DNA from: a virus
Lineage: Duplodnaviria > Caudoviricetes
Reading direction: 5' to 3' (one strand)
Length of the DNA: 58,269 nucleotides
IMG/VR virus record: IMGVR_UViG_3300028920_000079
Coordinates: 1-58,269 of that record
Positions within the stretch are counted from its first letter, which is position 1; each line of letters opens with the position of its first letter. This document shows positions 10,053 through 21,092 of the stretch, piece after piece. The position numbers and the translations under genes were made by a program. Under the pieces are notes generated by a model. The model was not told where the DNA came from, ran no database searches, and was given only the letters and a program-made list of their open reading frames with translations.

Positions 10053-10276
10053 CCTTCCTCGCCCGGCAGCGTGGCGGTCGGTTGATATTGAGGCCATTCT
10101 TTGCTGGGCCTAATACTACTATTCAGCATACTACAATCACGCGGACTACATAAGAATCCGTCTACATGAGGACAATCATGCGCCAAATAACACACAATTA
10201 AGGGGTCTGGATATTTTCGCTTCCATTCAATTCGTCGCCTCCACATCTTATATTTTTTAATCCACTTCATCATCAT
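10049..10276 (-). CDS. Hypothetical protein
   Basis: C..AHDC.HVDGFLC; translational coupling. Confidence 0.6.
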   Translation of the reverse strand: MMMKWIKKYKMWRRRIEWKRKYPDPLIVCYLAHDCPHVDGFLCSPRDCSMLNSSIRPSKEWPQYQPTATLPGEEG

Positions 10277-10563
10277 CCTTTCTCGCCCGGTGGCGTGGCT
10301 TTCGGTTGGTCAGTTATGTTCGGCGTGCTGTTCGGTAACGGAACTCCCGTGCCAACAATCTGTGTTTGCGTGTATCCGTCATGCTGAAATGTGACGCTGA
10401 TCGTAAACCTATTGACAGCATGAGCATCTACAAGTTTGGCATTCCGCAATGGTTTGATATGTTGCAGTGCGTGTTGTCGAACAATGGCCTTGATACGCCG
10501 GGGGTGACATGTACCTTTTTTTTCTTCAGCGGTCGACCTGTCTTTTGTCCAGTTGAGTTTCAT
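10273..10563 (-). CDS. Chimeric hypothetical protein (WTKDR N-terminus)
   Basis: MKLNWTKDRSTAE followed by unrelated sequence. Confidence 0.6.
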   Translation of the reverse strand: MKLNWTKDRSTAEEKKGTCHPRRIKAIVRQHALQHIKPLRNAKLVDAHAVNRFTISVTFQHDGYTQTQIVGTGVPLPNSTPNITDQPKATPPGEKG

Positions 10564-10724
10564 CGTGGTCCTTTCACCTTTTTTACATGAGCATCTAGCA
10601 CCGACATAATACCGCGCCAGAAGTTCGCCGCAGTGTTGTTCTGGTACATCAGATGAACCATTTCAATTATTGCTTCGCCGGTTGCACGTCCGGCACGTTC
10701 GGCTCTTGATAGTTTCTTGTTCAT
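10560..10724 (-). CDS. Small hypothetical protein (54 aa, not in ORF track)
   Basis: MNKKLSRAERAGRATGEAIIEMVHLMYQNNTAANFWRGI...; GAAAGGA RBS. Confidence 0.65.
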   Translation of the reverse strand: MNKKLSRAERAGRATGEAIIEMVHLMYQNNTAANFWRGIMSVLDAHVKKVKGPR

Positions 10725-10726
10725 GA

Positions 10727-10945
10727 TCATCCTTTCCCGCCCGGCGGCGTGTTCTCAGGAAACCACTCAGCACCTTCAGAATGCACCCGCACCTTGCCGG
10801 TCTTCGTAACATAAACTTGCAGTCTGGTCTTTGGCGTTTCGATTCCGAGCACGATCCATTTCCTTTTTTTATCGCTAGTGATTCTTGTGACTTTGGCAGC
10901 ACCGTATTCAAAGCCGTATTCTGTTTCAGCGTAGTGTATCATCAT
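10727..10945 (-). CDS. Conserved phage hypothetical protein
   Basis: HYAETEYGFEYGAAKV..LQVYVTKTGKVRV. Confidence 0.7.
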   Translation of the reverse strand: MMIHYAETEYGFEYGAAKVTRITSDKKRKWIVLGIETPKTRLQVYVTKTGKVRVHSEGAEWFPENTPPGGKG

Positions 10946-11223
10946 AATCCTTTCCCGCCCGTCACCGTGGCAGTCTGTTGGTCCGTTCTGTCTACTGCAC
11001 TGTTGGGTTGCCTTCTGTTCCATGACTTGACGGCAGCCGCCTCAGTGCGCTCACCACCCATTGAGCAGAAGCAATTTGTATTGTTGCACTGCACCCAGAA
11101 CACCACCTTGGATGTTTTCATCTGAACGTCTGTTGTCCCGCAAAACGGGCAACCCAATAAGGAGTCCGAGCGTACCTCAGAAGGCCGCGTTTCTGGTTGT
11201 TCTTGAGTCTGTTGTGTAGTCAT
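10942..11223 (-). CDS. Lar-like restriction-alleviation zinc protein (cassette gene)
   Basis: CPFCG...V.C....C......A...WNRR. Confidence 0.75.
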   Translation of the reverse strand: MTTQQTQEQPETRPSEVRSDSLLGCPFCGTTDVQMKTSKVVFWVQCNNTNCFCSMGGERTEAAAVKSWNRRQPNSAVDRTDQQTATVTGGKGL

Positions 11224-11274
11224 TCGTTTTATCCTTTGCTGGCCTTCTGAGGCCGCTCAACTTGGTCGTTAGGA
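11152..11274 (+). mobile_element. Integron attC-like site (long loop)
   Basis: R'' ACCCAAT, 5 nt, L'' GTC[C]GAGC, 12-bp stem, L' GCTCAAC, 6 nt, R' GTTAGGA. Confidence 0.8.
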
Positions 11275-11447
11275 TTACAGATAATGTCGCGCAGATCAGC
11301 CATTTTGAGCATGGCCTCGCTCAATTTGCCGTTCGCGTACTGCAACTGTTTCCATAGCCTGCGGTTCTCTGCCGCCATCTCAGCAAATTTCTGCTCGCGG
11401 CAATCGCAGGCGTGGTGATGCGTTGCACATTCTTTCGTGTTTTCCAT
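11229..11447 (-). CDS. Hypothetical coiled-coil protein
   Basis: C.THHHACDCRE motif; GGGAG RBS. Confidence 0.7.
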   Translation of the reverse strand: MENTKECATHHHACDCREQKFAEMAAENRRLWKQLQYANGKLSEAMLKMADLRDIICNPNDQVERPQKASKG

Positions 11448-11597
11448 ATTGTTCTCCCGTCCTAGTGCCGGTAAGCCCCGCCTCCGCGCCGTTCTGTGTT
11501 TTGAGTTCTGCACTCAGCATCAATAAACCCGTCAGTGATATAAGTGCAGTATGGCGCTTTGGCGGGGCGGGCCACTCGGCTTTTCCCGGCGTTTTAG

Positions 11598-11768
11598 TCA
11601 GCCATCGCCATTGCCTGAGCCATCGCCTGCGCCTGAGCCATCGCCTGAGCCATCGCCATCGCCATTGCCTGAGCCATCGCCTGCGCCTGAGCCATCGCCT
11701 GAGCCAGAGCCATAGCCAGAGCCATAGCCAGCGCCAGAGCCATAGCCCGATTTTTTTACATTTTCCAT
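11598..11768 (-). CDS. Glycine-rich (G-X)n peptide, 56 aa (not in ORF track)
   Basis: MENVKKSGYGSGAGYGSGYGSGSGDGSG...GNGDG*. Confidence 0.75.
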   Translation of the reverse strand: MENVKKSGYGSGAGYGSGYGSGSGDGSGAGDGSGNGDGDGSGDGSGAGDGSGNGDG

Positions 11769-13416: not shown

Positions 13417-13595
13417 AGCACCCCCTTCTGCCGCCTGATCTTATCCCTGTACGCGATCTTAATAGCGTCCTCGATTGCCGCAGACCTGTTGTTGTCTGTC
13501 AGCTTAGTGATATGATCCAGAAGCAGGTAAGACTGCAGGCTAATGCTTGCAGATATCCGCTTCCACCCGTGTTCTCTCTTGCGTAGTCTCTTCAT
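13413..13595 (-). CDS. Ribbon-helix-helix regulator
   Basis: KRISASIS....LD.....NRSAAIEDAI. Confidence 0.7.
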   Translation of the reverse strand: MKRLRKREHGWKRISASISLQSYLLLDHITKLTDNNRSAAIEDAIKIAYRDKIRRQKGVL

Positions 13596-13620
13596 GCCAT
13601 ACCCCTTTCAATTGTCCGGT

Positions 13621-13720
13621 AGTTTATTAAACTTTAATACCAGAGTCAAGCAATAAACCCTATATTTTTCAATCTTTTTTCTTGCGCTCGTACAGTAATA
13701 TACAGTAATATACTGTAACG
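13621..13720. promoter_or_regulatory. Divergent promoter/operator region
   Basis: - strand TTGACT-17-TAAACT; tandem TACAGTAATA and palindrome TACAGTA-ata-TACTGTA at 13701-13717. Confidence 0.65.
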
Positions 13721-13921
13721 ATGAAATGGAAGCAGATATCCATCAGTATACCGGAAGAGGCGTTACCGTACATTAAACAGGTAGCGAAGGAACAGAATAG
13801 AACGGTAGCTTCTCTCGGTGGATGGGCACTGCTACAGCTTACAGGTTGGTACGATAGACATCCGTTAAACATGAGTGAGTTCATAGAGAATGAAAGAATT
13901 GAACGTACAAACAGACGATAG
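13721..13921 (+). CDS. Ribbon-helix-helix (Arc-like) regulator, probably leaderless
   Basis: KQISISIPE....IK.VA...NRTVA; no RBS, TATACT 6 nt upstream of ATG. Confidence 0.65.
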   Translation: MKWKQISISIPEEALPYIKQVAKEQNRTVASLGGWALLQLTGWYDRHPLNMSEFIENERIERTNRR

Positions 13922-14108
13922 AGACGTTATCATTAGAGGGCAGCAGATTGCTTCCCGCTGGGTAGAGTCTATTTCGCGGGATACTGTAACTGAAATGGCT
14001 CTGATCATGGCAAGACAGGAAAAAGTTATAGCGAAATGTACTGTTGAAATTGATCGGCTGACTAAAGAGATCAGGATACTTCAGCAGAAGCTGTCTTTAA
14101 CTGAATAA
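13890..14108 (+). CDS. Hypothetical coiled-coil protein
   Basis: ORF overlapping the RHH gene. Confidence 0.45.
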   Translation: MKELNVQTDDRDVIIRGQQIASRWVESISRDTVTEMALIMARQEKVIAKCTVEIDRLTKEIRILQQKLSLTE

Positions 14109-14310
14109 GCTTTGCCTGTCCTGCTTTGATCCGTTTCCGTTCACCGTACCGCTTTGCAATCATGTATTGATCATCGTCCAGTAGCTTTGCATTACTCTTA
14201 GCAGGCTTTTCCCACATCCCTCTGGACTTGTAATACCTTGGTCTTTCGTAGGTGCCGTCCCATACGGTAACGATACCGTCCTTGTCTCGACAATACCATA
14301 CAGTTTTCAT
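14071..14310 (-). CDS. Hypothetical protein
   Basis: WYCRDKDG; ATGA overlap. Confidence 0.6.
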   Translation of the reverse strand: MKTVWYCRDKDGIVTVWDGTYERPRYYKSRGMWEKPAKSNAKLLDDDQYMIAKRYGERKRIKAGQAKLIQLKTASAEVS

Positions 14311-14867
14311 GCTTCTGCCTTGTCCTTAAGCTGTGCTTGTGCTGTTAATCCTACACCTATAGCGGCCCATACATCCTTGCTTACACCGTACAGTGGTCCC
14401 GGCTTATGCTTCCAGCCTGTAGCATCGCACTCAGGGCACGGTTCATGGTCCCTGCCTACCCATGTCTTACCTTTACAACGCTGGCACTTCTTGCCGCCTA
14501 TAGCCTCTTCCTTGGTCGGGCCGTAATGGTCTATTATAGCCTGTCTAATAGTGCTATCGTTAGCCCTTGGGTTTTTGCATAGATGCAGCTTTACATCCTG
14601 ACGGTATATCTTGATCTTCTTGCCAGCTCGTGAGGCTTGCCAGAACCGGCCAGCCCAGAACACTGTCTCAAATGTAGACTTGCCGACGGGCATACCGTAA
14701 GAGGCAACCATTTCAACGGCTAGGACGGCGACAAAAGGCCATATGTTATACAACTCAGGCAGCATATCTTCGTTAGAAAGAAGTCCGAAGTCTTCTATCT
14801 TCGGCAAGCGATAATCTAGGACTGCATATGCCGACTGGTATGTACCGGGATCAATGGCTAAGATCAT
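14307..14867 (-). CDS. RuvC-like Holliday junction resolvase with zinc-finger insert
   Basis: ILAIDPG..AVEMVASYG..FETV.W.GRF..D.WAA; CQRC..CPEC insert. Confidence 0.75.
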   Translation of the reverse strand: MILAIDPGTYQSAYAVLDYRLPKIEDFGLLSNEDMLPELYNIWPFVAVLAVEMVASYGMPVGKSTFETVFWAGRFWQASRAGKKIKIYRQDVKLHLCKNPRANDSTIRQAIIDHYGPTKEEAIGGKKCQRCKGKTWVGRDHEPCPECDATGWKHKPGPLYGVSKDVWAAIGVGLTAQAQLKDKAEA

Positions 14868-15124
14868 GTTGTTTCCTTTAACTCGTATCGCGACAAGGCT
14901 TGCTCTAACGTCACCTTACCGCGAGCAGCCCTATGCCACAGCAGCAGACCGACAACGCCAACCTGTTCAGGCTCTATATGCTCACAGTGGGCGGCTGCAA
15001 GCAAGCATTCATCTCGCGTGTACTCGGCAAGTTCCAGAGTCATCAACGGGACACGTTGCCTACGCCATCTCTCTTCACGCTTCCACAGAGCCGACCCTTC
15101 TTGTATCATCCGTACAAATTTCAT
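14864..15124 (-). CDS. Hypothetical protein
   Basis: Start lies in the junction repeat; coupled to downstream gene. Confidence 0.55.
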   Translation of the reverse strand: MKFVRMIQEGSALWKREERWRRQRVPLMTLELAEYTRDECLLAAAHCEHIEPEQVGVVGLLLWHRAARGKVTLEQALSRYELKETT

Positions 15125-15133
15125 AATCCTACC

Positions 15134-15190
15134 CTCAAACCAGCGTCTACAGACGACGTGGATACACGCGCCTGAGACTTGTCGTTGACT
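15134..15190 (+). mobile_element. Integron attC-like site 1 of array
   Basis: CTCAAAC-5-TCT[A]CAGA-CG[A]CGTG-gata-CACG-CG-CCTGAGA-6-GTTGACT. Confidence 0.75.
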
Positions 15191-15209
15191 ATAAACTAAG
15201 GAACCATAA

Positions 15210-15488
15210 ATGAATAGAGAACCAGATTTGACGCTTAAAATACAGCAAGCGAATGTAGAACTGCGTCAATATATTTTTGCATTGGAAAAAGAAATTGCTC
15301 GCCTTCAAAAGCAGAATGCGCATCTCCAAGCGAAGGATACATCCAACCAATACAGGATCTCGCATCTTGAGCAAAGCATAGCCGACCTTCAGCGTAAAAC
15401 AAGGCTTCATGTCAACATCGGTTTGAGTTCGCAATCTACACCTCCTGATACACAATCAAGTCAACAAAAGAATCCAGCAGACGGATAA
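15210..15488 (+). CDS. Cassette-borne coiled-coil protein
   Basis: AAGGA RBS just after the core site; opposite strand to the surrounding operon. Confidence 0.7.
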   Translation: MNREPDLTLKIQQANVELRQYIFALEKEIARLQKQNAHLQAKDTSNQYRISHLEQSIADLQRKTRLHVNIGLSSQSTPPDTQSSQQKNPADG

Positions 15489-15513
15489 ACCGCCGCTGAT
15501 CCATACGTTAAAA
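15459..15513 (+). mobile_element. Integron attC-like site 2
   Basis: AGTCAAC-5-AAT[C]CAGC-AG[A]CGG-ataaa-CCG-CC-GCTGATC-5-GTTAAAA; AGTCAAC is the reverse complement of the upstream core GTTGACT. Confidence 0.85.
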
Positions 15514-15528
15514 GACCAAAGGAATATC

Positions 15529-15774
15529 ATGCAAAAACCTGTATTTTTTGTTTCTGAACGTGAATATCCTAAGCTACAAGCTGCATGCCCTGACGACTTC
15601 CCGTGGAAGTACCAAGAATTTGTTGAGCGATTTCAAAGCCTTTTGAGACATGATCCTAGCATCATCAAGATCAACGTGCGCGTAGCCGATTTTCTCGACT
15701 GGTGCAACAAGACCAAGGTCAATCCCAATAATACCTCTCGTGCTAGATATGCTGCACTTCTTTTCGCCAAATAA
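15529..15774 (+). CDS. Cassette-borne hypothetical protein
   Basis: AAAGGA RBS; Y.KL....D.FP..Y.EF..F..WC....R..YAA. Confidence 0.75.
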   Translation: MQKPVFFVSEREYPKLQAACPDDFPWKYQEFVERFQSLLRHDPSIIKINVRVADFLDWCNKTKVNPNNTSRARYAALLFAK

Positions 15775-15803
15775 TTTTAGTCTACTGTTCATACTTAATT
15801 CCT

Positions 15804-15857
15804 TTCTAATCATAAGTTGGAGCGGACGGAGTACCGCCGCTCATCTACACGTTAGGC
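15804..15857 (+). mobile_element. Integron attC-like site 3
   Basis: TTCTAAT-5-GTT[G]GAGC-GG[A]CGG-agta-CCG-CC-GCTCATC-5-GTTAGGC. Confidence 0.8.
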
Positions 15858-16094
15858 AATATGATCTCCGTTCCAATGTTCCATCACCTGAAGGCACAGT
15901 GCCCCCAAATCTATAGCCTCAGCGTAAATCCTATCTTCATTTCCACCTTCGTGTTTATGTTGCAAAATTGCCTGAGCAAGTTCCCCTGTTTCTTCTGCAA
16001 CAGCAAGCCCAAGCGTCTCAACGTTTTGCTTTCCCCATTTCTTTAGATTGTTGCTTGCTCGTTGAATCAACATATCTACGTTTTTGACATTCAT
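15852..16094 (-). CDS. MazG-like nucleotide pyrophosphohydrolase
   Basis: KWG.Q..EETGELAQA...EAIDLGA; TAA stop lies in the attC core. Confidence 0.7.
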   Translation of the reverse strand: MNVKNVDMLIQRASNNLKKWGKQNVETLGLAVAEETGELAQAILQHKHEGGNEDRIYAEAIDLGALCLQVMEHWNGDHIA

Positions 16095-16098
16095 AACC

Positions 16099-16407
16099 CT
16101 ACCCTCTAACCGCAACAGAAGTTGTGTCAATCCTGTTCAATTTATCTATTTCAGATTCAGGAACCTCATCACGATGATATGCTAAATAATGTACAGCAAG
16201 ACTGTTTGTTATAGTTCCATCAGGAAGCACTAAATCATACGTTGTACTATGCTCGCCGCATACACAAGTATGCCATCCGCGCCAGCACGTACCTTTCTGT
16301 GCTACAGCAAGCAATGCTCTCATCTTCGCTGTAAGCTCATCTTCTACTGGTTTCTTGCTAGCTGGTTGTGTGGGTCGAATATAAAGCAATAAGTTATCGT
16401 TTGGCAT
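16099..16407 (-). CDS. Hypothetical zinc-binding protein
   Basis: RGWHTC.CG..S...TNSLAVHYLA.HR.EVP. Confidence 0.75.
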   Translation of the reverse strand: MPNDNLLLYIRPTQPASKKPVEDELTAKMRALLAVAQKGTCWRGWHTCVCGEHSTTYDLVLPDGTITNSLAVHYLAYHRDEVPESEIDKLNRIDTTSVAVRG

Positions 16408-16411
16408 AACC

Positions 16412-16639
16412 CTACCCTCTAACCGCAACAGACCAAAAACCGTCCCATGGCTCTTGTGTTGCATTGGCATAATGAATTTCACATATTGGTCCTTGATATC
16501 CGCATGACTGACAAATGACCGCAACCAGCAATCGACCATGTTTATTTTTAGAACCCATGCATGCTACAGTTAATCCCGACAACTGTCCTGCAATAGCTTT
16601 GCATTGCGGACATGGCTCAACATTGAATGCATCTGGCAT
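16412..16639 (-). CDS. Lar-like zinc-ribbon protein
   Basis: PCPQC..VICQSCGYQGP..W. Confidence 0.55.
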   Translation of the reverse strand: MPDAFNVEPCPQCKAIAGQLSGLTVACMGSKNKHGRLLVAVICQSCGYQGPICEIHYANATQEPWDGFWSVAVRG

Positions 16640-16643
16640 AACC

Positions 16644-17318
16644 TTATCCTCGTACCGCAACAGAAGTCTCGCTATACACCTTGACACCCGGTATATTCAT
16701 GTTGCCCTTCAACGCCTTTGCCAATTGTCCGAGCACCTTTGTATCCGGCTTAACACAATTCTCTGCCGCCTTACCCTCGGCTATCGCAGTACACAACAGC
16801 TTCATATCCTCAACCTCAGCCTTCCATATCTGTCTTGTACTGACACCCTCGGCCTGCGGTGCTTCCTCGACAGGCTTAACAACTTCGGGAACAATAGGCG
16901 TTTCGAGGATAGCGGCAGCCGCTTTGTCCGATCCGAACTTTTCCAGAGCTTCGGCCTCTTCGAGACGTGCAGCTTCAGCCTTGCGCATAGCCTCTTCTTC
17001 TGCCTTGCGCTGCGCTTCCTGAATCTCACGTTCTCGCTGCATCTTGTAGTCAGCAAGCTTTGCCTTGACCTGCCTTTCAGCTTGGTCTAACGGCTTATCA
17101 AACTTGTTTTCCAAAGCTTTCACTTCTTTCCAAGCTTGATGCGCTTGCTTTACGGCTGGGCCTATCTCTTGTTTTACGCGCTTACGCATAGCTCGTATCG
17201 CAACTAGTAGCTTGCCGCCGTCCTCATAGTTAGAATCCGTTGTTACTTCAAATGCCTGTGCCTGATACAATACTGGCGTGACTTCCTGCTTAACCTTGGT
17301 TTCCATTTCCGTGTTCAT
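16644..17318 (-). CDS. Conserved coiled-coil protein of phage recombination modules
   Basis: Long E/A/K helix; W.AEV.D..IPGV.VY. Confidence 0.75.
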   Translation of the reverse strand: MNTEMETKVKQEVTPVLYQAQAFEVTTDSNYEDGGKLLVAIRAMRKRVKQEIGPAVKQAHQAWKEVKALENKFDKPLDQAERQVKAKLADYKMQREREIQEAQRKAEEEAMRKAEAARLEEAEALEKFGSDKAAAAILETPIVPEVVKPVEEAPQAEGVSTRQIWKAEVEDMKLLCTAIAEGKAAENCVKPDTKVLGQLAKALKGNMNIPGVKVYSETSVAVRG

Positions 17319-19250: not shown

Positions 19251-19661
19251 CTACTCTTCCGGCCATCTTTCCACCACACGAATACCAGTTCCTTCAACCA
19301 CAAACATATATCCGCAATCCCGTAGAGCCTCATTAACTACAGGAATTACCTTCTCGAATTCAGATTTCCACAATCGGTTTAATGCAGGAATCATTGCTTC
19401 AAGAACCAGTTTAGTCGTAGTGCTGCCAGCAGCCTGTTGTTCTTTCAGCATGGGAAGCTCATATATATGAAACTCATGTCTGTGAATTATTCCGTTCTTA
19501 TCTACGTAATCACACTGTAATAATGGAACAGCTTCAATCTTAAAACCTATAGGCATCATAGCGAAGTGTCCTCTTACAGTCATTGTTATGCCCATATAAG
19601 TAAACGTTTCACCAATACCTCGAAATGCTATTAGCTCTTCTATCTGTTTTTTTTCATTCAT
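19251..19661 (-). CDS. Hypothetical protein
   Basis: ATGA overlap with the integrase stop. Confidence 0.6.
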   Translation of the reverse strand: MNEKKQIEELIAFRGIGETFTYMGITMTVRGHFAMMPIGFKIEAVPLLQCDYVDKNGIIHRHEFHIYELPMLKEQQAAGSTTTKLVLEAMIPALNRLWKSEFEKVIPVVNEALRDCGYMFVVEGTGIRVVERWPEE

Positions 19662-20761
19662 GGCATAATCCCAAAGTATTCCTCGCCCTCTTCCCTCGTA
19701 GCCAAGTTCCGGTAATGCTTGAACAACACACTGCTACTGTTGCCCATCATGCTGGTAGTCTTACTTACGTTCCCGTACTTGGCACAATGATACGTCGAAA
19801 AACTATGTCGAGTGATATTACTAGACCACTCTAATCCGTCCACCATAGCAACCAAGCTCTTCCTGTACTGATCAAACTCACGCCTGCCAACAAGCATATC
19901 ATCCGTAATAGAAGCATCCCAAGTAGCATCCAGCCAAGCAATCAGGTTATCTTCCATCTCAATATACCTAGACTGCCTGCACTTACTCACCTCTGGGTTA
20001 ATAAGTATAATACCTCTGGAACGCTGTATTTCGCCGTAGGATAACCTCTCGGCCTCAGATGAACGAAGGCCGGCAAATAATAAGATCGCGCCTTGTAGCT
20101 GCACTCTCGGCAATCCTTGCGCCCTTCTAAGCAGCATTTCAGCATGTTCAACGCTTAATACCTCTGGCATCTTCTCTTCTATGCTTGGTGACTGCAGTCT
20201 ATCGGTAGGCGTATCCTCTATGAAGCCTCGCTTTTTCGCAAAATTGAAAAAGACTTTAAGGTAACGCTGATCATTTGACTGTGTGATGAGACTAAGCGTG
20301 TGTCTCGTAGACAGGAAATGCTCTATCATATCCGGTGTAATCTGATCAACAGGTCGGTCGCCGCATATCTTAAGGAACCGTTTAAGGCTACATTCTGCAG
20401 TATCTATGCTACGTTGCCGTCTATTCATGTTCCGCATATCCTGAAGCAGCATCTCGTATACCTTCTGGGCACTGGGAATATAGTGTCTTGCCTTGTGGTG
20501 CTGATTGTAGAAGGATACTGCATCCAGTAAAGAACCGTCACCTAACATCTCGTAGGCTTGTGCCGCTGTTGCGAGTTGTTTCAGGGAAAAGTTCATTGCC
20601 TGCTCGCCGTACTTCTGCTGTTGTGTACGCAGGTGATCGGCAAGATCCTCGGCTAATTCTTGGGTCTTGCGCCGGTAGACTCTACGGTGATTGTCGATCC
20701 AGCCACAGTCTACTACCCATGAGCCGTTCTTTTCTTCTCTTATTCTCGGCCATTCTTTCAT
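19658..20761 (-). CDS. Tyrosine recombinase / integrase
   Basis: FAGLRSSE (R), SK, TRHSF.TY, MGNS, KHY; N-terminal arm-binding-like region. Confidence 0.88.
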   Translation of the reverse strand: MKEWPRIREEKNGSWVVDCGWIDNHRRVYRRKTQELAEDLADHLRTQQQKYGEQAMNFSLKQLATAAQAYEMLGDGSLLDAVSFYNQHHKARHYIPSAQKVYEMLLQDMRNMNRRQRSIDTAECSLKRFLKICGDRPVDQITPDMIEHFLSTRHTLSLITQSNDQRYLKVFFNFAKKRGFIEDTPTDRLQSPSIEEKMPEVLSVEHAEMLLRRAQGLPRVQLQGAILLFAGLRSSEAERLSYGEIQRSRGIILINPEVSKCRQSRYIEMEDNLIAWLDATWDASITDDMLVGRREFDQYRKSLVAMVDGLEWSSNITRHSFSTYHCAKYGNVSKTTSMMGNSSSVLFKHYRNLATREEGEEYFGIMP

Positions 20762-20762
20762 C

Positions 20763-21092
20763 TTAGTATCCCGTAATTGTAATTGCACCTACTAATACGC
20801 CAATACCACCCATGATTATTACTGTTGCAAAAAGGAAACCTAAAGCTGCCATAAGCAGTGAGCCAATACGTAAAACCCAAGGACTGCTTTGCCACTCGTC
20901 CTTATGTAGCATTGATAAATATGGTATCAAACAGACAATGGTAATGCCTGTGAATAGCAGCAAGGTGCTGCAAAGGCTTCTTACAAAAAGCTCATTCCAA
21001 TCAGTACCTGCAATAAGAGCATTCGATACGACTGTATTAGTTGCCACATCTACATAAGCCTTAGTTGCCATAGGATTCGTATATGTCATCAC
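20763..21092 (-). CDS. Two-TM membrane protein
   Basis: Two hydrophobic segments; TN-rich N-terminus. Confidence 0.55.
   Translation of the reverse strand: MMTYTNPMATKAYVDVATNTVVSNALIAGTDWNELFVRSLCSTLLLFTGITIVCLIPYLSMLHKDEWQSSPWVLRIGSLLMAALGFLFATVIIMGGIGVLVGAITITGY

What the first reader, a model, noticed from the sequence alone, without database searches (positions are those of the whole stretch)
15134..15857. Phage-borne integron cassette array without integrase: three attC sites, two captured genes
Seen: three 54-57 bp sites with R''-5-L''(8, extrahelical 4th base)..[A]..L'(7)-5/6-GTT geometry, all oriented +. They delimit two cassettes (15185-15507, 15508-15851), each holding RBS plus ORF antisense to the phage operon. 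Cassette A has exactly complementary core and inverse core (GTTGACT/AGTCAAC). The MazG-like phage gene stops in the third core. Established: this is cassette architecture. No IntI is recognisable here. Inference: the phage uses host IntI to load host-type cassettes at its attC sites, so it can both receive and carry integron cargo.
Basis: partly seen in the sequence, partly recalled or inferred. Interest (0 to 1): 0.85.

Follow-up and report, generated by a model that had tools for sequence, protein, structure and literature searches.

The report
Integron cassette array inside a phage
A marine-sediment phage carries, wedged backwards between two of its early genes, two small gene cassettes bounded by three integron-type recombination sites but no integron integrase, a rare arrangement that has already been described in other phages.

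Summary
I built a covariance model only from 52 attC sites in cassette arrays next to true integron integrases. Other phage DNA gave nothing comparable. The sites bound two cassettes of 323 and 344 bp. Each cassette holds one ORF that is sense to the attC sites and antisense to the phage operon. Cassette A's start is a perfect 7/7 complement of its own inverse core. A homologue of ORF B sits before an attC site in an attC cluster of a MAG that encodes IntI. The window has only an ordinary phage tyrosine integrase.

The sites are weak: low scores, poor hairpin energy, and AAT instead of AAC in site 3. Loading by a host IntI remains an inference.

Phage-borne clusters of attC sites without an integrase (CALINs) are already published (Qi et al. 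2023: 17 CALINs among 10,705 phage genomes). This is therefore a new member of a known kind.

Two extras: a fourth attC-like site at 11152-11274, and metagenomic contigs with related MazG genes in which attC sites lie antisense at gene junctions and chain like true cassettes.

The parts
15134..15190 (+). attC site 1. R'' is CTCAAAC, followed by a bulged hairpin, then CGTT and R' GTTGACT. Crossover at G15184|T15185.
   Evidence: R1 hit 15134-15189, 25.5 bits, E 8.1e-4. R2 hit 25.9 bits. Bottom-strand fold -10.9 kcal/mol. Its 5' arm is a diverged copy of the phage's own gene-junction repeat.
15185..15507 (+). Cassette A, 323 bp.
   Evidence: It starts TTGACT. With the preceding G this is a 7/7 reverse complement of its own inverse core AGTCAAC at 15459-15465. 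In the computed circular form its attC folds end to end, including the R box, at -11.1 kcal/mol.
15210..15488 (+). ORF A, 92 aa, a predicted coiled-coil protein. Its stop codon lies in the loop of attC site 2.
   Evidence: ORF list. Only weak coiled-coil family matches. 18 weak relatives of 70-97 aa, E 5e-7 to 9e-4.
15459..15513 (+). attC site 2. R'' is AGTCAAC and R' is GTTAAAA. Crossover at G15507|T15508.
   Evidence: R1 hit 24.2 bits, E 1.6e-3. R2 partial hit 15463-15509, 17.1 bits. Its 3' arm is 86% identical over 22 nt to that of site 3.
15508..15851 (+). Cassette B, 344 bp.
   Evidence: Boundaries are set by sites 2 and 3. Its start GTTAAAA is only a 5/7 complement of the site-3 inverse core TTCTAAT.
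15529..15774 (+). ORF B, 81 aa, member of a conserved small protein family of unknown function.
   Evidence: 25 homologues at 46-54% identity. AlphaFold model with pLDDT 96 has no significant PDB match. The homologue in L072 is followed by an attC site (38.2 bits).
15804..15857 (+). attC site 3. R'' is TTCTAAT (AAT, not AAC) and R' is GTTAGGC. Crossover at G15851|T15852.
   Evidence: R1 hit 27.0 bits, E 3.4e-4. R2 hit 26.5 bits. The assembly graph of the probable source run branches exactly at 15850/15851.
15852..16091 (-). MazG-like NTP pyrophosphatase gene of the phage operon. Its TAA stop lies inside the R' core of site 3.
   Evidence: PF03819 and phrog_1247 matches. 54 homologues, the best 91% identical with the same C-terminus.
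14864..15124 (-). 86-aa phage ORF downstream of the array in the operon. Its RBS repeat overlaps R'' of site 1.
   Evidence: ORF list. Junction-repeat alignment. No family match.
11152..11274 (+). Fourth, isolated attC-like site (123 nt; R'' ACCCAAT, R' GTTAGGA). The RBS and start codon (11223) of a minus-strand gene lie in its loop.
   Evidence: R1 18.3 bits, E 0.042. R2 26.6 bits, E 2.9e-4. ORFs.
19658..20788 (-). Phage tyrosine integrase. It is not an integron integrase.
   Evidence: TIGR02249 30.7 bits against a cut-off of 265. PF00589 and phrog_1 matches.

Best explanation
The 724-bp stretch is a genuine integron-type gene-cassette array without an integrase (a CALIN). It sits in the early operon of a roughly 58-kb tailed, integrase-bearing phage from marine sediment. 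The array lies between the stop codon of a MazG-like gene and the ribosome-binding site of the next minus-strand gene.

Three short attC sites on the + strand bound two single-ORF cassettes. No promoter was detected in either cassette. Their ORFs run with the attC sites and against the phage operon.

Mechanism, from established integron biology (recalled, and as summarised in PMC9892861):
- Each attC acts as a folded single-stranded (bottom-strand) hairpin with extrahelical bases.
- An integron integrase cuts it between G and TT of the R' core.
- attC x attC or attC x attI exchange inserts or excises circular cassettes.
- The phage has no IntI, so any such reaction needs an IntI supplied by a host integron.

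Most economical history: the lineage had a resident attC directly after mazG (site 1's body plus the TTAGGC now at site 3). Cassettes A and B were then inserted there.

Shown here: the sites match an attC model; the boundaries lie at G|TT; cassette A has a perfect core/inverse-core pair; a relative of ORF B lies in an attC cluster; relatives of mazG have antisense attC sites directly downstream.

Inferred: IntI involvement, the order of events, and whether the sites are still active.
For: 1. Model R1 was built only from 52 attC sites of arrays beside IntI genes that score above the TIGR02249 cut-off. It ranks the three sites first, second and third in the window, all on the + strand (27.0, 25.5, 24.2 bits).

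2. Controls: 0 hits in 583,303 bases of other viral DNA (default filters). Best hit 12.9 bits in 92,243 bases with filters off.

3. Columns that are invariant or nearly invariant in the real sites (T..A of L'', the bulged GAC, C before GTT) are present in all three window sites.

4. Chain rule: R' of site 1 against R'' of site 2 is 7/7 complementary, using an atypical core (GTTGACT). In real arrays 50 of 67 consecutive pairs are 7/7.

5. Both cassette ORFs are sense to attC, as in 57 of 65 real cassettes. Both have relatives elsewhere.

6. The ORF B homologue in L072 is followed by an attC site (38.2 bits), with two more downstream. That MAG (G001) has an IntI scoring 496 bits.

7. In 21 metagenomic loci with MazG relatives, 20 of 21 R1 hits (E<=10) are antisense to mazG, as in the window. 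In L135 and L136 a site begins 9 and 3 nt after the MazG match. 5 of 6 consecutive site pairs obey the 7/7 chain rule, against 9 of 94 non-consecutive pairs.

8. Logan contigs of the probable source run cover 13500-15880 in one piece at depth 33.5, against 31.4 beyond. The array is therefore physically joined to the phage genes on its left. A minor contig (depth 3.4) diverges exactly at 15850/15851.
Against: - Scores of 24-27 bits lie in the lower tail of 20 non-training attC hits in loci flanking IntI genes and in MAG contigs L072 and L084 (16.7-56.3 bits, median 42.75; only 4 are <=27.8).
- Bottom-strand folding energies are -7.3 to -10.9 kcal/mol against a training median of -17.4. Per nucleotide, 50 to 52 of the 52 training sites are at least as stable.
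- Site 3 has AAT instead of the invariant AAC, and cassette B's core pair is only 5/7.
- The R''-L'' arm of site 1 is a diverged copy of a repeat found at three other junctions of the operon. It may therefore be partly native phage sequence.
- 12 of 13 genome loci with ORF B homologues show no full-length attC hit at E<=1; L062 and L065 have only partial hits of 15.7 and 17.2 bits.
- The genomic context of ORF A relatives could not be obtained.
- Cassette GC (0.42) does not stand out from the phage (0.46, sd 0.038 for 330-nt windows).
- No relative with an empty site or other cassettes was retrieved.
- The branch at 15851 also lies 1-2 nt past the mazG stop codon, so an ordinary gene-boundary mosaic joint explains it equally well.
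- I chose the training sites with my own heuristic, which required AAC/GTT and arm pairing. R1 is not the community model and its E-values are rough.
Confidence: 0.7

Rival explanations
1. Fossil array. A fragment of a bacterial cassette array (or a CALIN) entered the phage en bloc by illegitimate or short-homology recombination, for instance through the R''-like junction repeat. The sites have since decayed and no integrase acts on them in the phage.
For: Low model scores and weak hairpins. AAT in site 3 and a 5/7 core pair for cassette B. Site 1's 5' arm is homologous to the phage junction repeat CTCTAACCGCAACAGA. Cassette GC is close to that of the phage. Qi et al. themselves propose off-target homologous or illegitimate recombination at GTTRRRY-like motifs as the route into phages (section 3.4).
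Against: Cassette A keeps a perfect 7/7 core pair with an atypical sequence. The right border falls exactly at G|TT, with a canonical GTTAGGC shared with the mazG stop. MazG relatives repeatedly carry an antisense attC at the same place, and those sites obey the chain rule. That points to repeated site-specific events in this gene neighbourhood.
Confidence: 0.2
2. Look-alike hairpins. The three elements are phage regulatory stem-loops (terminators, RNA-processing or antisense-control structures) that resemble attC sites only by chance or convergence. The two ORFs form an ordinary antisense 'moron'.
For: The stems are short (9-13 bp) and lie at ORF ends, where terminators lie. The ORFs are antisense inserts between operon genes, like morons.
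Against: No T-run follows the stems, and the terminator scan found none there. The match to attC extends to unpaired conserved positions (AAC, bulged GAC, CGTT) and to spacing. It also extends to the 7/7 core pair. Other phage DNA gives no such hits.
Confidence: 0.06
3. The phage's own tyrosine recombinase (19658-20788), or another phage enzyme, uses these sites rather than an integron integrase.
For: A tyrosine recombinase is encoded 4 kb away.
Against: It scores as an ordinary phage integrase (phrog_1, PF00589) and far below the IntI model (30.7 against 265 bits). The sites match the consensus of IntI substrates, not an attP-type site. There is no evidence for such an activity.
Confidence: 0.03
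4. Assembly chimera. Bacterial integron DNA was mis-joined into a phage contig.
For: The record is a metagenomic assembly, and the assembly graph branches at 15851.
Against: An independent Logan contig spans 13500-15880: phage genes, all three sites, both cassettes and 30 nt of mazG. Its depth is 33.5, against 31.4 on the far side. The alternative branch has depth 3.4. The run is probably the source sample, so this is a re-assembly and not an independent sample.
Confidence: 0.02

Closest known systems
Phage-borne CALINs (clusters of attC sites lacking an integron integrase) of Qi, Rajabal, Ghaly, Tetu and Gillings 2023, Front Microbiol, PMC9892861
   Same: At least two attC sites with single-ORF cassettes in a phage genome and no IntI. 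Cassettes are co-oriented. That paper's attC sites recombined with IntI1 (5 of 6 tested). DNA methyltransferases were among its phage cassette cargo, and phage-type methyltransferases also neighbour the attC-like sites in the MazG-relative contigs seen here.
   Different: This one comes from an uncultivated marine-sediment phage. It lies antisense inside an early operon, directly on the stop codon of a MazG gene. Its sites are unusually short (54-57 nt) and weak, and no assay has been done. That paper's supplementary tables could not be opened here, so I cannot say whether a similar architecture is listed there.
Bacterial CALIN and single-attC (SALIN) elements as defined by IntegronFinder (Cury et al. 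2016, PMC4889954; Neron et al. 2022; only search listings seen, definitions partly recalled)
   Same: attC sites matched by a covariance model with no integrase nearby. The isolated site at 11152-11274 would be a SALIN-type element.
   Different: The host replicon is a phage. IntegronFinder itself was not run.
Cassette insertion outside att sites (bioRxiv 10.1101/2022.09.11.507474; only the start of the abstract seen in the listing)
   Same: IntI can put cassettes into genomic positions outside integrons. This offers a route for a first attC to enter a phage.
   Different: Such an insertion leaves one attC per cassette. Here there are three sites for two cassettes, so the target itself already looked like an attC.
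Phage morons (recalled concept)
   Same: Small extra genes inserted between conserved phage genes, often in the opposite direction.
   Different: Morons typically bring their own promoter and terminator. Here no promoter or terminator was detected above chance, and the borders are attC sites.

Membership tests
Integron attC recombination site | Match to a covariance model of attC sequence plus structure | tested here: met
   R1, built from 52 real sites, gives 27.0, 25.5 and 24.2 bits and the top three ranks. These lie at the low end of 20 non-training real sites, which range 16.7-56.3 bits with median 42.75. IntegronFinder's own model was not available.
Integron attC recombination site | Conserved triplets: AAC in R'' and GTT in R' | tested here: inconclusive
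   GTT is present in all three sites. AAC is present in sites 1 and 2. Site 3 has AAT, as does the fourth site at 11152. AAC was invariant in all 52 training sites, but my selection heuristic required it.
Integron attC recombination site | Imperfect hairpin with extrahelical bases on the R''/L'' arm, an unpaired spacer between the R and L boxes, and a short variable loop | tested here: met
   All three sites have a bulged 4th base in L'' and a bulged A in GAC on the 5' arm, 5-7 nt unpaired spacers and 4-5 nt loops. The stems are weak: -7.3 to -10.9 kcal/mol against a median of -17.4.
Integron attC recombination site | Recombination by an integron integrase on the folded bottom strand | not testable with these tools
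   This needs an attC x attI conjugation assay, as done in PMC9892861.
Integron cassette array / CALIN | Two or more co-oriented attC sites close together with no IntI nearby | tested here: met
   There are three + strand sites within 724 bp. No IntI is found in the whole 58,269-base record: the best TIGR02249 match scores 30.7 bits against a cut-off of 265. CheckV rates the record 80% complete, so an IntI on a missing part cannot be excluded.
Integron cassette array / CALIN | Each cassette's first bases (TTxxxx after G) are complementary to the R'' of its own attC | tested here: inconclusive
   Cassette A is 7/7 and cassette B is 5/7. In real arrays 50 of 67 pairs are 7/7, 7 are 6/7, 8 are 5/7, and 1 each are 4/7 and 3/7.
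Integron cassette array / CALIN | One ORF per cassette, sense to attC | tested here: met
   ORF A and ORF B are both on the + strand, like the sites. In real arrays 57 of 65 cassettes are sense.
Integron cassette array / CALIN | Cargo genes also found as cassettes elsewhere | tested here: inconclusive
   For ORF B, 1 of 13 genome loci (L072) is attC-associated. For ORF A, no genomic context was obtainable.
Complete integron | intI gene with an adjacent attI site and Pc promoter | tested here: not met
   No IntI is present. attI was not searched for. This is not a complete integron.

The most novel reading that the evidence does not exclude
In this group of sediment phages the early operon is itself a cassette array read backwards. 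attC sites lie antisense at gene junctions, and the next gene's ribosome-binding site and start codon sit in the attC loop. Phage genes such as mazG and orphan DNA methyltransferases are mobile cassettes with inverted ORFs.

The phage would then be an integrase-less integron platform. It would borrow a host IntI to shuffle its own early genes and would occasionally take up bacterial (sense) cassettes such as A and B. Part of phage early-region mosaicism would be site-specific rather than illegitimate.

The evidence so far:
- 20 of 21 model hits in MazG-relative contigs are antisense to mazG.
- 5 of 6 consecutive site pairs obey the 7/7 chain rule, against 9 of 94 control pairs.
- Phage-type methyltransferases sit in those arrays.
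- One such site lies on an IMG/VR contig that has a portal-like gene.
- The window's fourth site has the same junction layout.

Weak points: the best arrays are 1-1.5 kb contigs of unknown replicon, and the scores are modest.
Probability: 0.3. Interest if true: 0.8.

Novelty: new member of a known kind. Interest (0 to 1): 0.5.

Why it matters
Phage CALINs are rare in isolates: 17 among 10,705 genomes in Qi et al. 2023. They are the proposed bridge by which cassettes move between bacterial integrons through transduction.

This case extends them to an uncultivated marine-sediment phage. It also gives an unusually clean anatomy. The array sits exactly on a gene's stop codon. One cassette keeps an intact core pair and the other is decaying. 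This makes the insertion history readable and testable.

If the wider pattern in MazG-relative contigs holds, integron-type recombination would be a driver of phage early-gene mosaicism. That would be of real interest to both phage and integron specialists. The cargo itself (a coiled-coil protein and a conserved small alpha/beta protein) has no known function.

Tried and rejected
Searches that led nowhere:
- The shared 20-nt arm of sites 2 and 3 searched in viral contigs gave 14 loci. All were an unrelated coding sequence or single chance matches without the hairpin.
- No close relatives of the phage were found. MazG, resolvase, exonuclease and ORF A/B queries in viral contigs gave none, or only relatives of 46% identity or less without synteny. 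INPHARED blastn gave none.
- The exact 23-mer of the mazG 3' end gave 0 hits in metagenome contigs.
- The MazG homologues of 81-91% identity were not among the loci returned, so their neighbourhoods are unseen.
- ORF A: the word-index search found only itself. It was not found in the 400 genomes scored of the class of G004 (one further genome could not be scored).
- ORF B function: no Pfam family and a weak phrog_4753 match. No PDB fold match at E<=0.001; the best is 2ox6 at E 0.13. The Atlas gives only hypothetical proteins and N-terminal parts of SEC-C proteins.
- Promoter and terminator scans were not above chance.
- Cassette GC is not distinctive.
- The junction repeats at 16089, 16402 and 16634 are not full attC sites: no R1 or R2 hit at E<=10.
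- No second site was found next to 11152-11274.
- The 30-nt loose end of the minor contig is absent from the window and from viral contigs.
- Only one sequencing run holds the stretch. It is probably the source, and it is kept as contigs, so excision joints in raw reads could not be sought.

Correction to my own control: 12 of the 34 hits proved to be training sites and were dropped from the comparison.

Full report
**What the window is.** The window is a whole IMG/VR virus record of 58,269 bases. It is linear and CheckV rates it 80% complete. It encodes a portal or adaptor protein, terminase large subunit, tail fibre, internal virion protein, primase/helicase, RecT, two exonuclease-like proteins, a Holliday-junction resolvase and a tyrosine integrase. 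It is therefore a tailed, probably temperate phage. Nearly all genes lie on the minus strand. The only public run that holds the stretch is a marine sediment metagenome, probably the source sample.

**Checking the observation.**
- Three + strand elements lie at 15134-15190, 15459-15513 and 15804-15857.
- Each has the layout xxxxAAC (AAT in the third), a 7-nt spacer, a bulged hairpin with a 4-5-nt loop, a 5-7-nt spacer, and then CGTT.
- Between them lie ORF A (15210-15488, 92 aa) and ORF B (15529-15774, 81 aa). Both are on the + strand and each has a purine-rich RBS.
- They are flanked by the minus-strand genes 14864-15124 (86 aa) and 15852-16091 (MazG-like; PF03819, phrog_1247).
- The MazG stop codon lies inside GTTAGGC of the third element.
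- GTTGACT at 15184 is the exact complement of AGTCAAC at 15459.
- The 3' arms of elements 2 and 3 are 86% identical over 22 nt, and that motif occurs nowhere else in the window.

**A test against real attC sites.** IntegronFinder was not available, so I made a stand-in.
- ORF B homologues led me to MAGs that encode true integron integrases, scoring 466-497 bits against the TIGR02249 cut-off of 265.
- A survey of 301 genomes of the same class found IntI in 111. This tally includes three unpublished genomes that I did not otherwise use.
- I fetched the DNA on the cassette side of 20 of these intI genes, plus two more stretches.
- I located attC sites there with a simple heuristic that required AAC...GTT with complementary arms.
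- I aligned the 52 distinct sites of 76 nt or less, after dropping two obvious non-attC palindromes.
- The alignment showed strong covariation: 13 of 14 predicted pairs have compensatory changes. I built covariance model R1 from it.
- In these real arrays the longest ORF is sense to the attC in 57 of 65 cassettes. The R' of one site is a perfect 7/7 complement of the R'' of the next in 50 of 67 pairs. The strand convention and the 'chain rule' are therefore validated on my own material.

**Result of the test.**
All are on the + strand: 15804-15857 (27.0 bits, E 3.4e-4), 15134-15189 (25.5 bits, E 8.1e-4) and 15459-15513 (24.2 bits, E 1.6e-3). A fourth hit lies at 11152-11274 (18.3 bits, E 0.042), and nothing else exceeds 10.7 bits.
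- In 583,303 bases of 58 other viral loci there was no hit at E<=10 with default filters.
- In 92,243 bases of eight other phage loci with filters off the best hit was 12.9 bits.
- The alignments show that the window sites share not only the stem. They also share the conserved T..A of L'', the bulged A of 'GAC' and the C before GTT.

**How good are the sites?** Not very.
- In loci flanking IntI genes and in MAG contigs L072 and L084, R1 gave 34 hits at E<=1. Of these, 12 were training sites. Of the other 22, 20 lay in those loci and scored 16.7-56.3 bits with median 42.75. The window sites sit in the lower tail.
- Their bottom strands fold at -10.9, -7.3 and -10.3 kcal/mol, against a training median of -17.4 (range -29.9 to -10.1). 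Per nucleotide, 50 to 52 of the 52 training sites are at least as stable.
- Site 3 has AAT where every training site has AAC. Cassette B's core pair is 5/7.
- Cassette A looks intact. Its computed circular-form attC folds end to end, with a full R box.

**No integrase.** The only TIGR02249 match in the record is the phage integrase at 19658-20788. It scores 30.7 bits against a cut-off of 265 and is an ordinary PF00589 / phrog_1 protein. The structure is therefore a CALIN and not an integron.

**The cargo.**
- ORF B belongs to a well-conserved family of roughly 90-aa proteins: 25 homologues at 46-54% identity.
- Its model is confident (pLDDT 96) but has no significant PDB match. The Atlas relates it only to hypothetical proteins and to N-terminal parts of SEC-C-motif proteins.
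- Of 13 genome loci with a homologue, 12 show no full-length attC hit at E<=1 (L062 and L065 have only partial hits, 15.7 and 17.2 bits). Three Burkholderiales loci share a conserved downstream region with an ordinary terminator.
- One locus, L072 (a Sulfurifustaceae MAG whose genome encodes IntI on another contig), has the homologue directly followed by an attC site of 38.2 bits. Two more sites lie downstream on the same strand.
- ORF A is a coiled-coil protein with 18 weak relatives. Their genomic context could not be obtained.
- No promoter or terminator is detectable above chance. Cassette GC (0.42) is within one standard deviation of the phage mean.

**Context in relatives.**
- MazG has 54 homologues, the closest 91% identical with the same C-terminus. 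Those closest contigs could not be fetched.
- 21 metagenomic loci with relatives of 37-71% identity were fetched. They share only mazG with the window, except for one phage contig that also has a portal-like gene.
- R1 found 21 hits at E<=10 in them, and 20 are antisense to mazG, the same relative orientation as in the window. The best score 37.6, 30.8, 27.4 and 25.7 bits.
- In L135 and L136 a site begins 9 and 3 nt after the MazG match, just as site 3 abuts mazG in the window.
- In L135, L136, L151 and L152 the sites lie at successive gene junctions. The next gene's RBS and start codon sit in the attC loop. 5 of 6 consecutive pairs obey the 7/7 chain rule, against 9 of 94 non-consecutive pairs.
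- The neighbouring genes include phage-type DNA methyltransferases and a SEC-C zinc-ribbon protein.
- These look like arrays of cassettes whose ORFs are inverted relative to attC, which is unusual.
- Model R2, built from 11 of these sites, hits the window at 11152-11274 (26.6 bits), 15804-15857 (26.5), 15134-15189 (25.9) and 15463-15509 (17.1). It also hits one site on an IMG/VR contig upstream of its mazG (22.3 bits).
- The site at 11152-11274 has the same 'junction' layout, with the start codon at 11223 of a minus-strand gene in its loop.

**Reading the history.**
- To the right of G15851 the sequence is the conserved end of mazG.
- To the left of G15184 lies site 1. Its R''-L'' arm is a diverged copy (with a 4-nt indel) of a 28-nt repeat. 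That repeat forms the stop/RBS/start junction of three other genes of the operon.
- The simplest account is a single resident attC between mazG and the 86-aa gene (site 1 joined to TTAGGC). Cassettes A and B were then inserted into it by attC x attC exchange.
- An alternative I cannot exclude is en bloc capture of a bacterial array fragment through the R''-like junction repeat, followed by decay.

**Population evidence.** Logan contigs of the probable source run break at the 30-mer 15851-15880.
- One contig (depth 33.5) runs from 13500 through both cassettes to 15880.
- A 39-kb contig (depth 31.4) continues from 15851.
- A 313-nt contig (depth 3.4) shares only 15851-15880 and carries unrelated sequence before 15851.

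The array is thus firmly joined to the phage. A minor variant diverges exactly at the predicted crossover point. That point is also 1-2 nt past the mazG stop codon. The unrelated sequence could be another gene start rather than an attC arm. I therefore count this as suggestive only.

**Comparison with what is known.** Qi et al. 2023 (PMC9892861; I read the abstract, section 3.4 and passages of sections 2.1 and 3) screened 10,705 phage genomes. They found 3 complete integrons, one In0 element and 17 CALINs. They showed that 5 of 6 tested phage attC sites recombine with attI1 under IntI1. They also noted DNA methyltransferase cargo and GTTRRRY-like motifs at CALIN borders. The present case is therefore a new member of a known, rare kind. 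My two literature searches surfaced no report of phage operons built of inverted-ORF cassettes. They were not designed to exclude one, and supplements were closed.

**Verdict.**
- Novelty: a new member of a known kind.
- Interest is moderate. It would be raised if the antisense junction-attC pattern in MazG-relative phage contigs proves general.

Noticed in passing
window 11152-11274 (+): A fourth attC-like site of 123 nt. A 12-bp perfect inverted repeat (CCTCAGAAGGCC / GGCCTTCTGAGG) encloses the RBS and start codon (11223) of a minus-strand gene and the stop of the gene before it. R1 gives 18.3 bits and R2 gives 26.6 bits. Its R'' ends AAT, like site 3.
   Followed up: partly
window 16089-16116, 16402-16429, 16634-16661 (minus strand); diverged copy at 15122-15153: A 28-nt gene-junction repeat, TCTGTTGCGGTTAGAGGGTAGGGTTATG on the minus strand. 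It supplies the last codons (SVAVRG), the stop, the RBS and the start of successive early genes. It contains an R'-like GTTAGAG. Its copy before the 86-aa gene forms the 5' arm of attC site 1.
   Followed up: partly
window 10273-11513 (minus strand): A second set of look-alike gene ends. Four of five consecutive small minus-strand ORFs end in ...GGKG, ...GEKG, ...ASKG or ...GGKGL (the fifth ends ...KGPR), with the next start a few bases away. This suggests another repeated junction sequence.
   Followed up: no
window about 11580-11750: A run of short direct repeats (units such as GCCATCGCCTGAGCC). It gives long repetitive ORFs on both strands (WLWLWL... and SHRLRLSHRL...).
   Followed up: no
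window 15851 (Logan contigs of run X1): A 313-nt contig at about one tenth of the main depth shares 15851-15880 and then carries unrelated sequence to the left. This is a minor variant whose breakpoint coincides with G|TT of site 3 and with the end of mazG.
   Followed up: partly
L135 664-1004, L136 739-1319, L151 489-789, L152 293-862: Short metagenomic contigs in which every gene junction of a co-directional operon (MazG, phage-type DNA methyltransferases, small ORFs) carries an antisense attC-like site. Consecutive sites chain 7/7. These appear to be cassette arrays with inverted ORFs.
   Followed up: partly
window 15529-15774 (ORF B): A confident small alpha/beta fold (pLDDT 96) with no significant PDB neighbour. 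The family is mostly chromosomal in Burkholderiales-type MAGs. The phage copy has 43% GC, whereas the homologue-bearing MAG sequences printed look GC-rich (not computed).
   Followed up: partly
window 13721-14108 (+): Two further small + strand ORFs (66 and 72 aa) lie among the minus-strand early genes, upstream of the array on the same strand. They might mark + strand transcription that could reach the cassettes.
   Followed up: no
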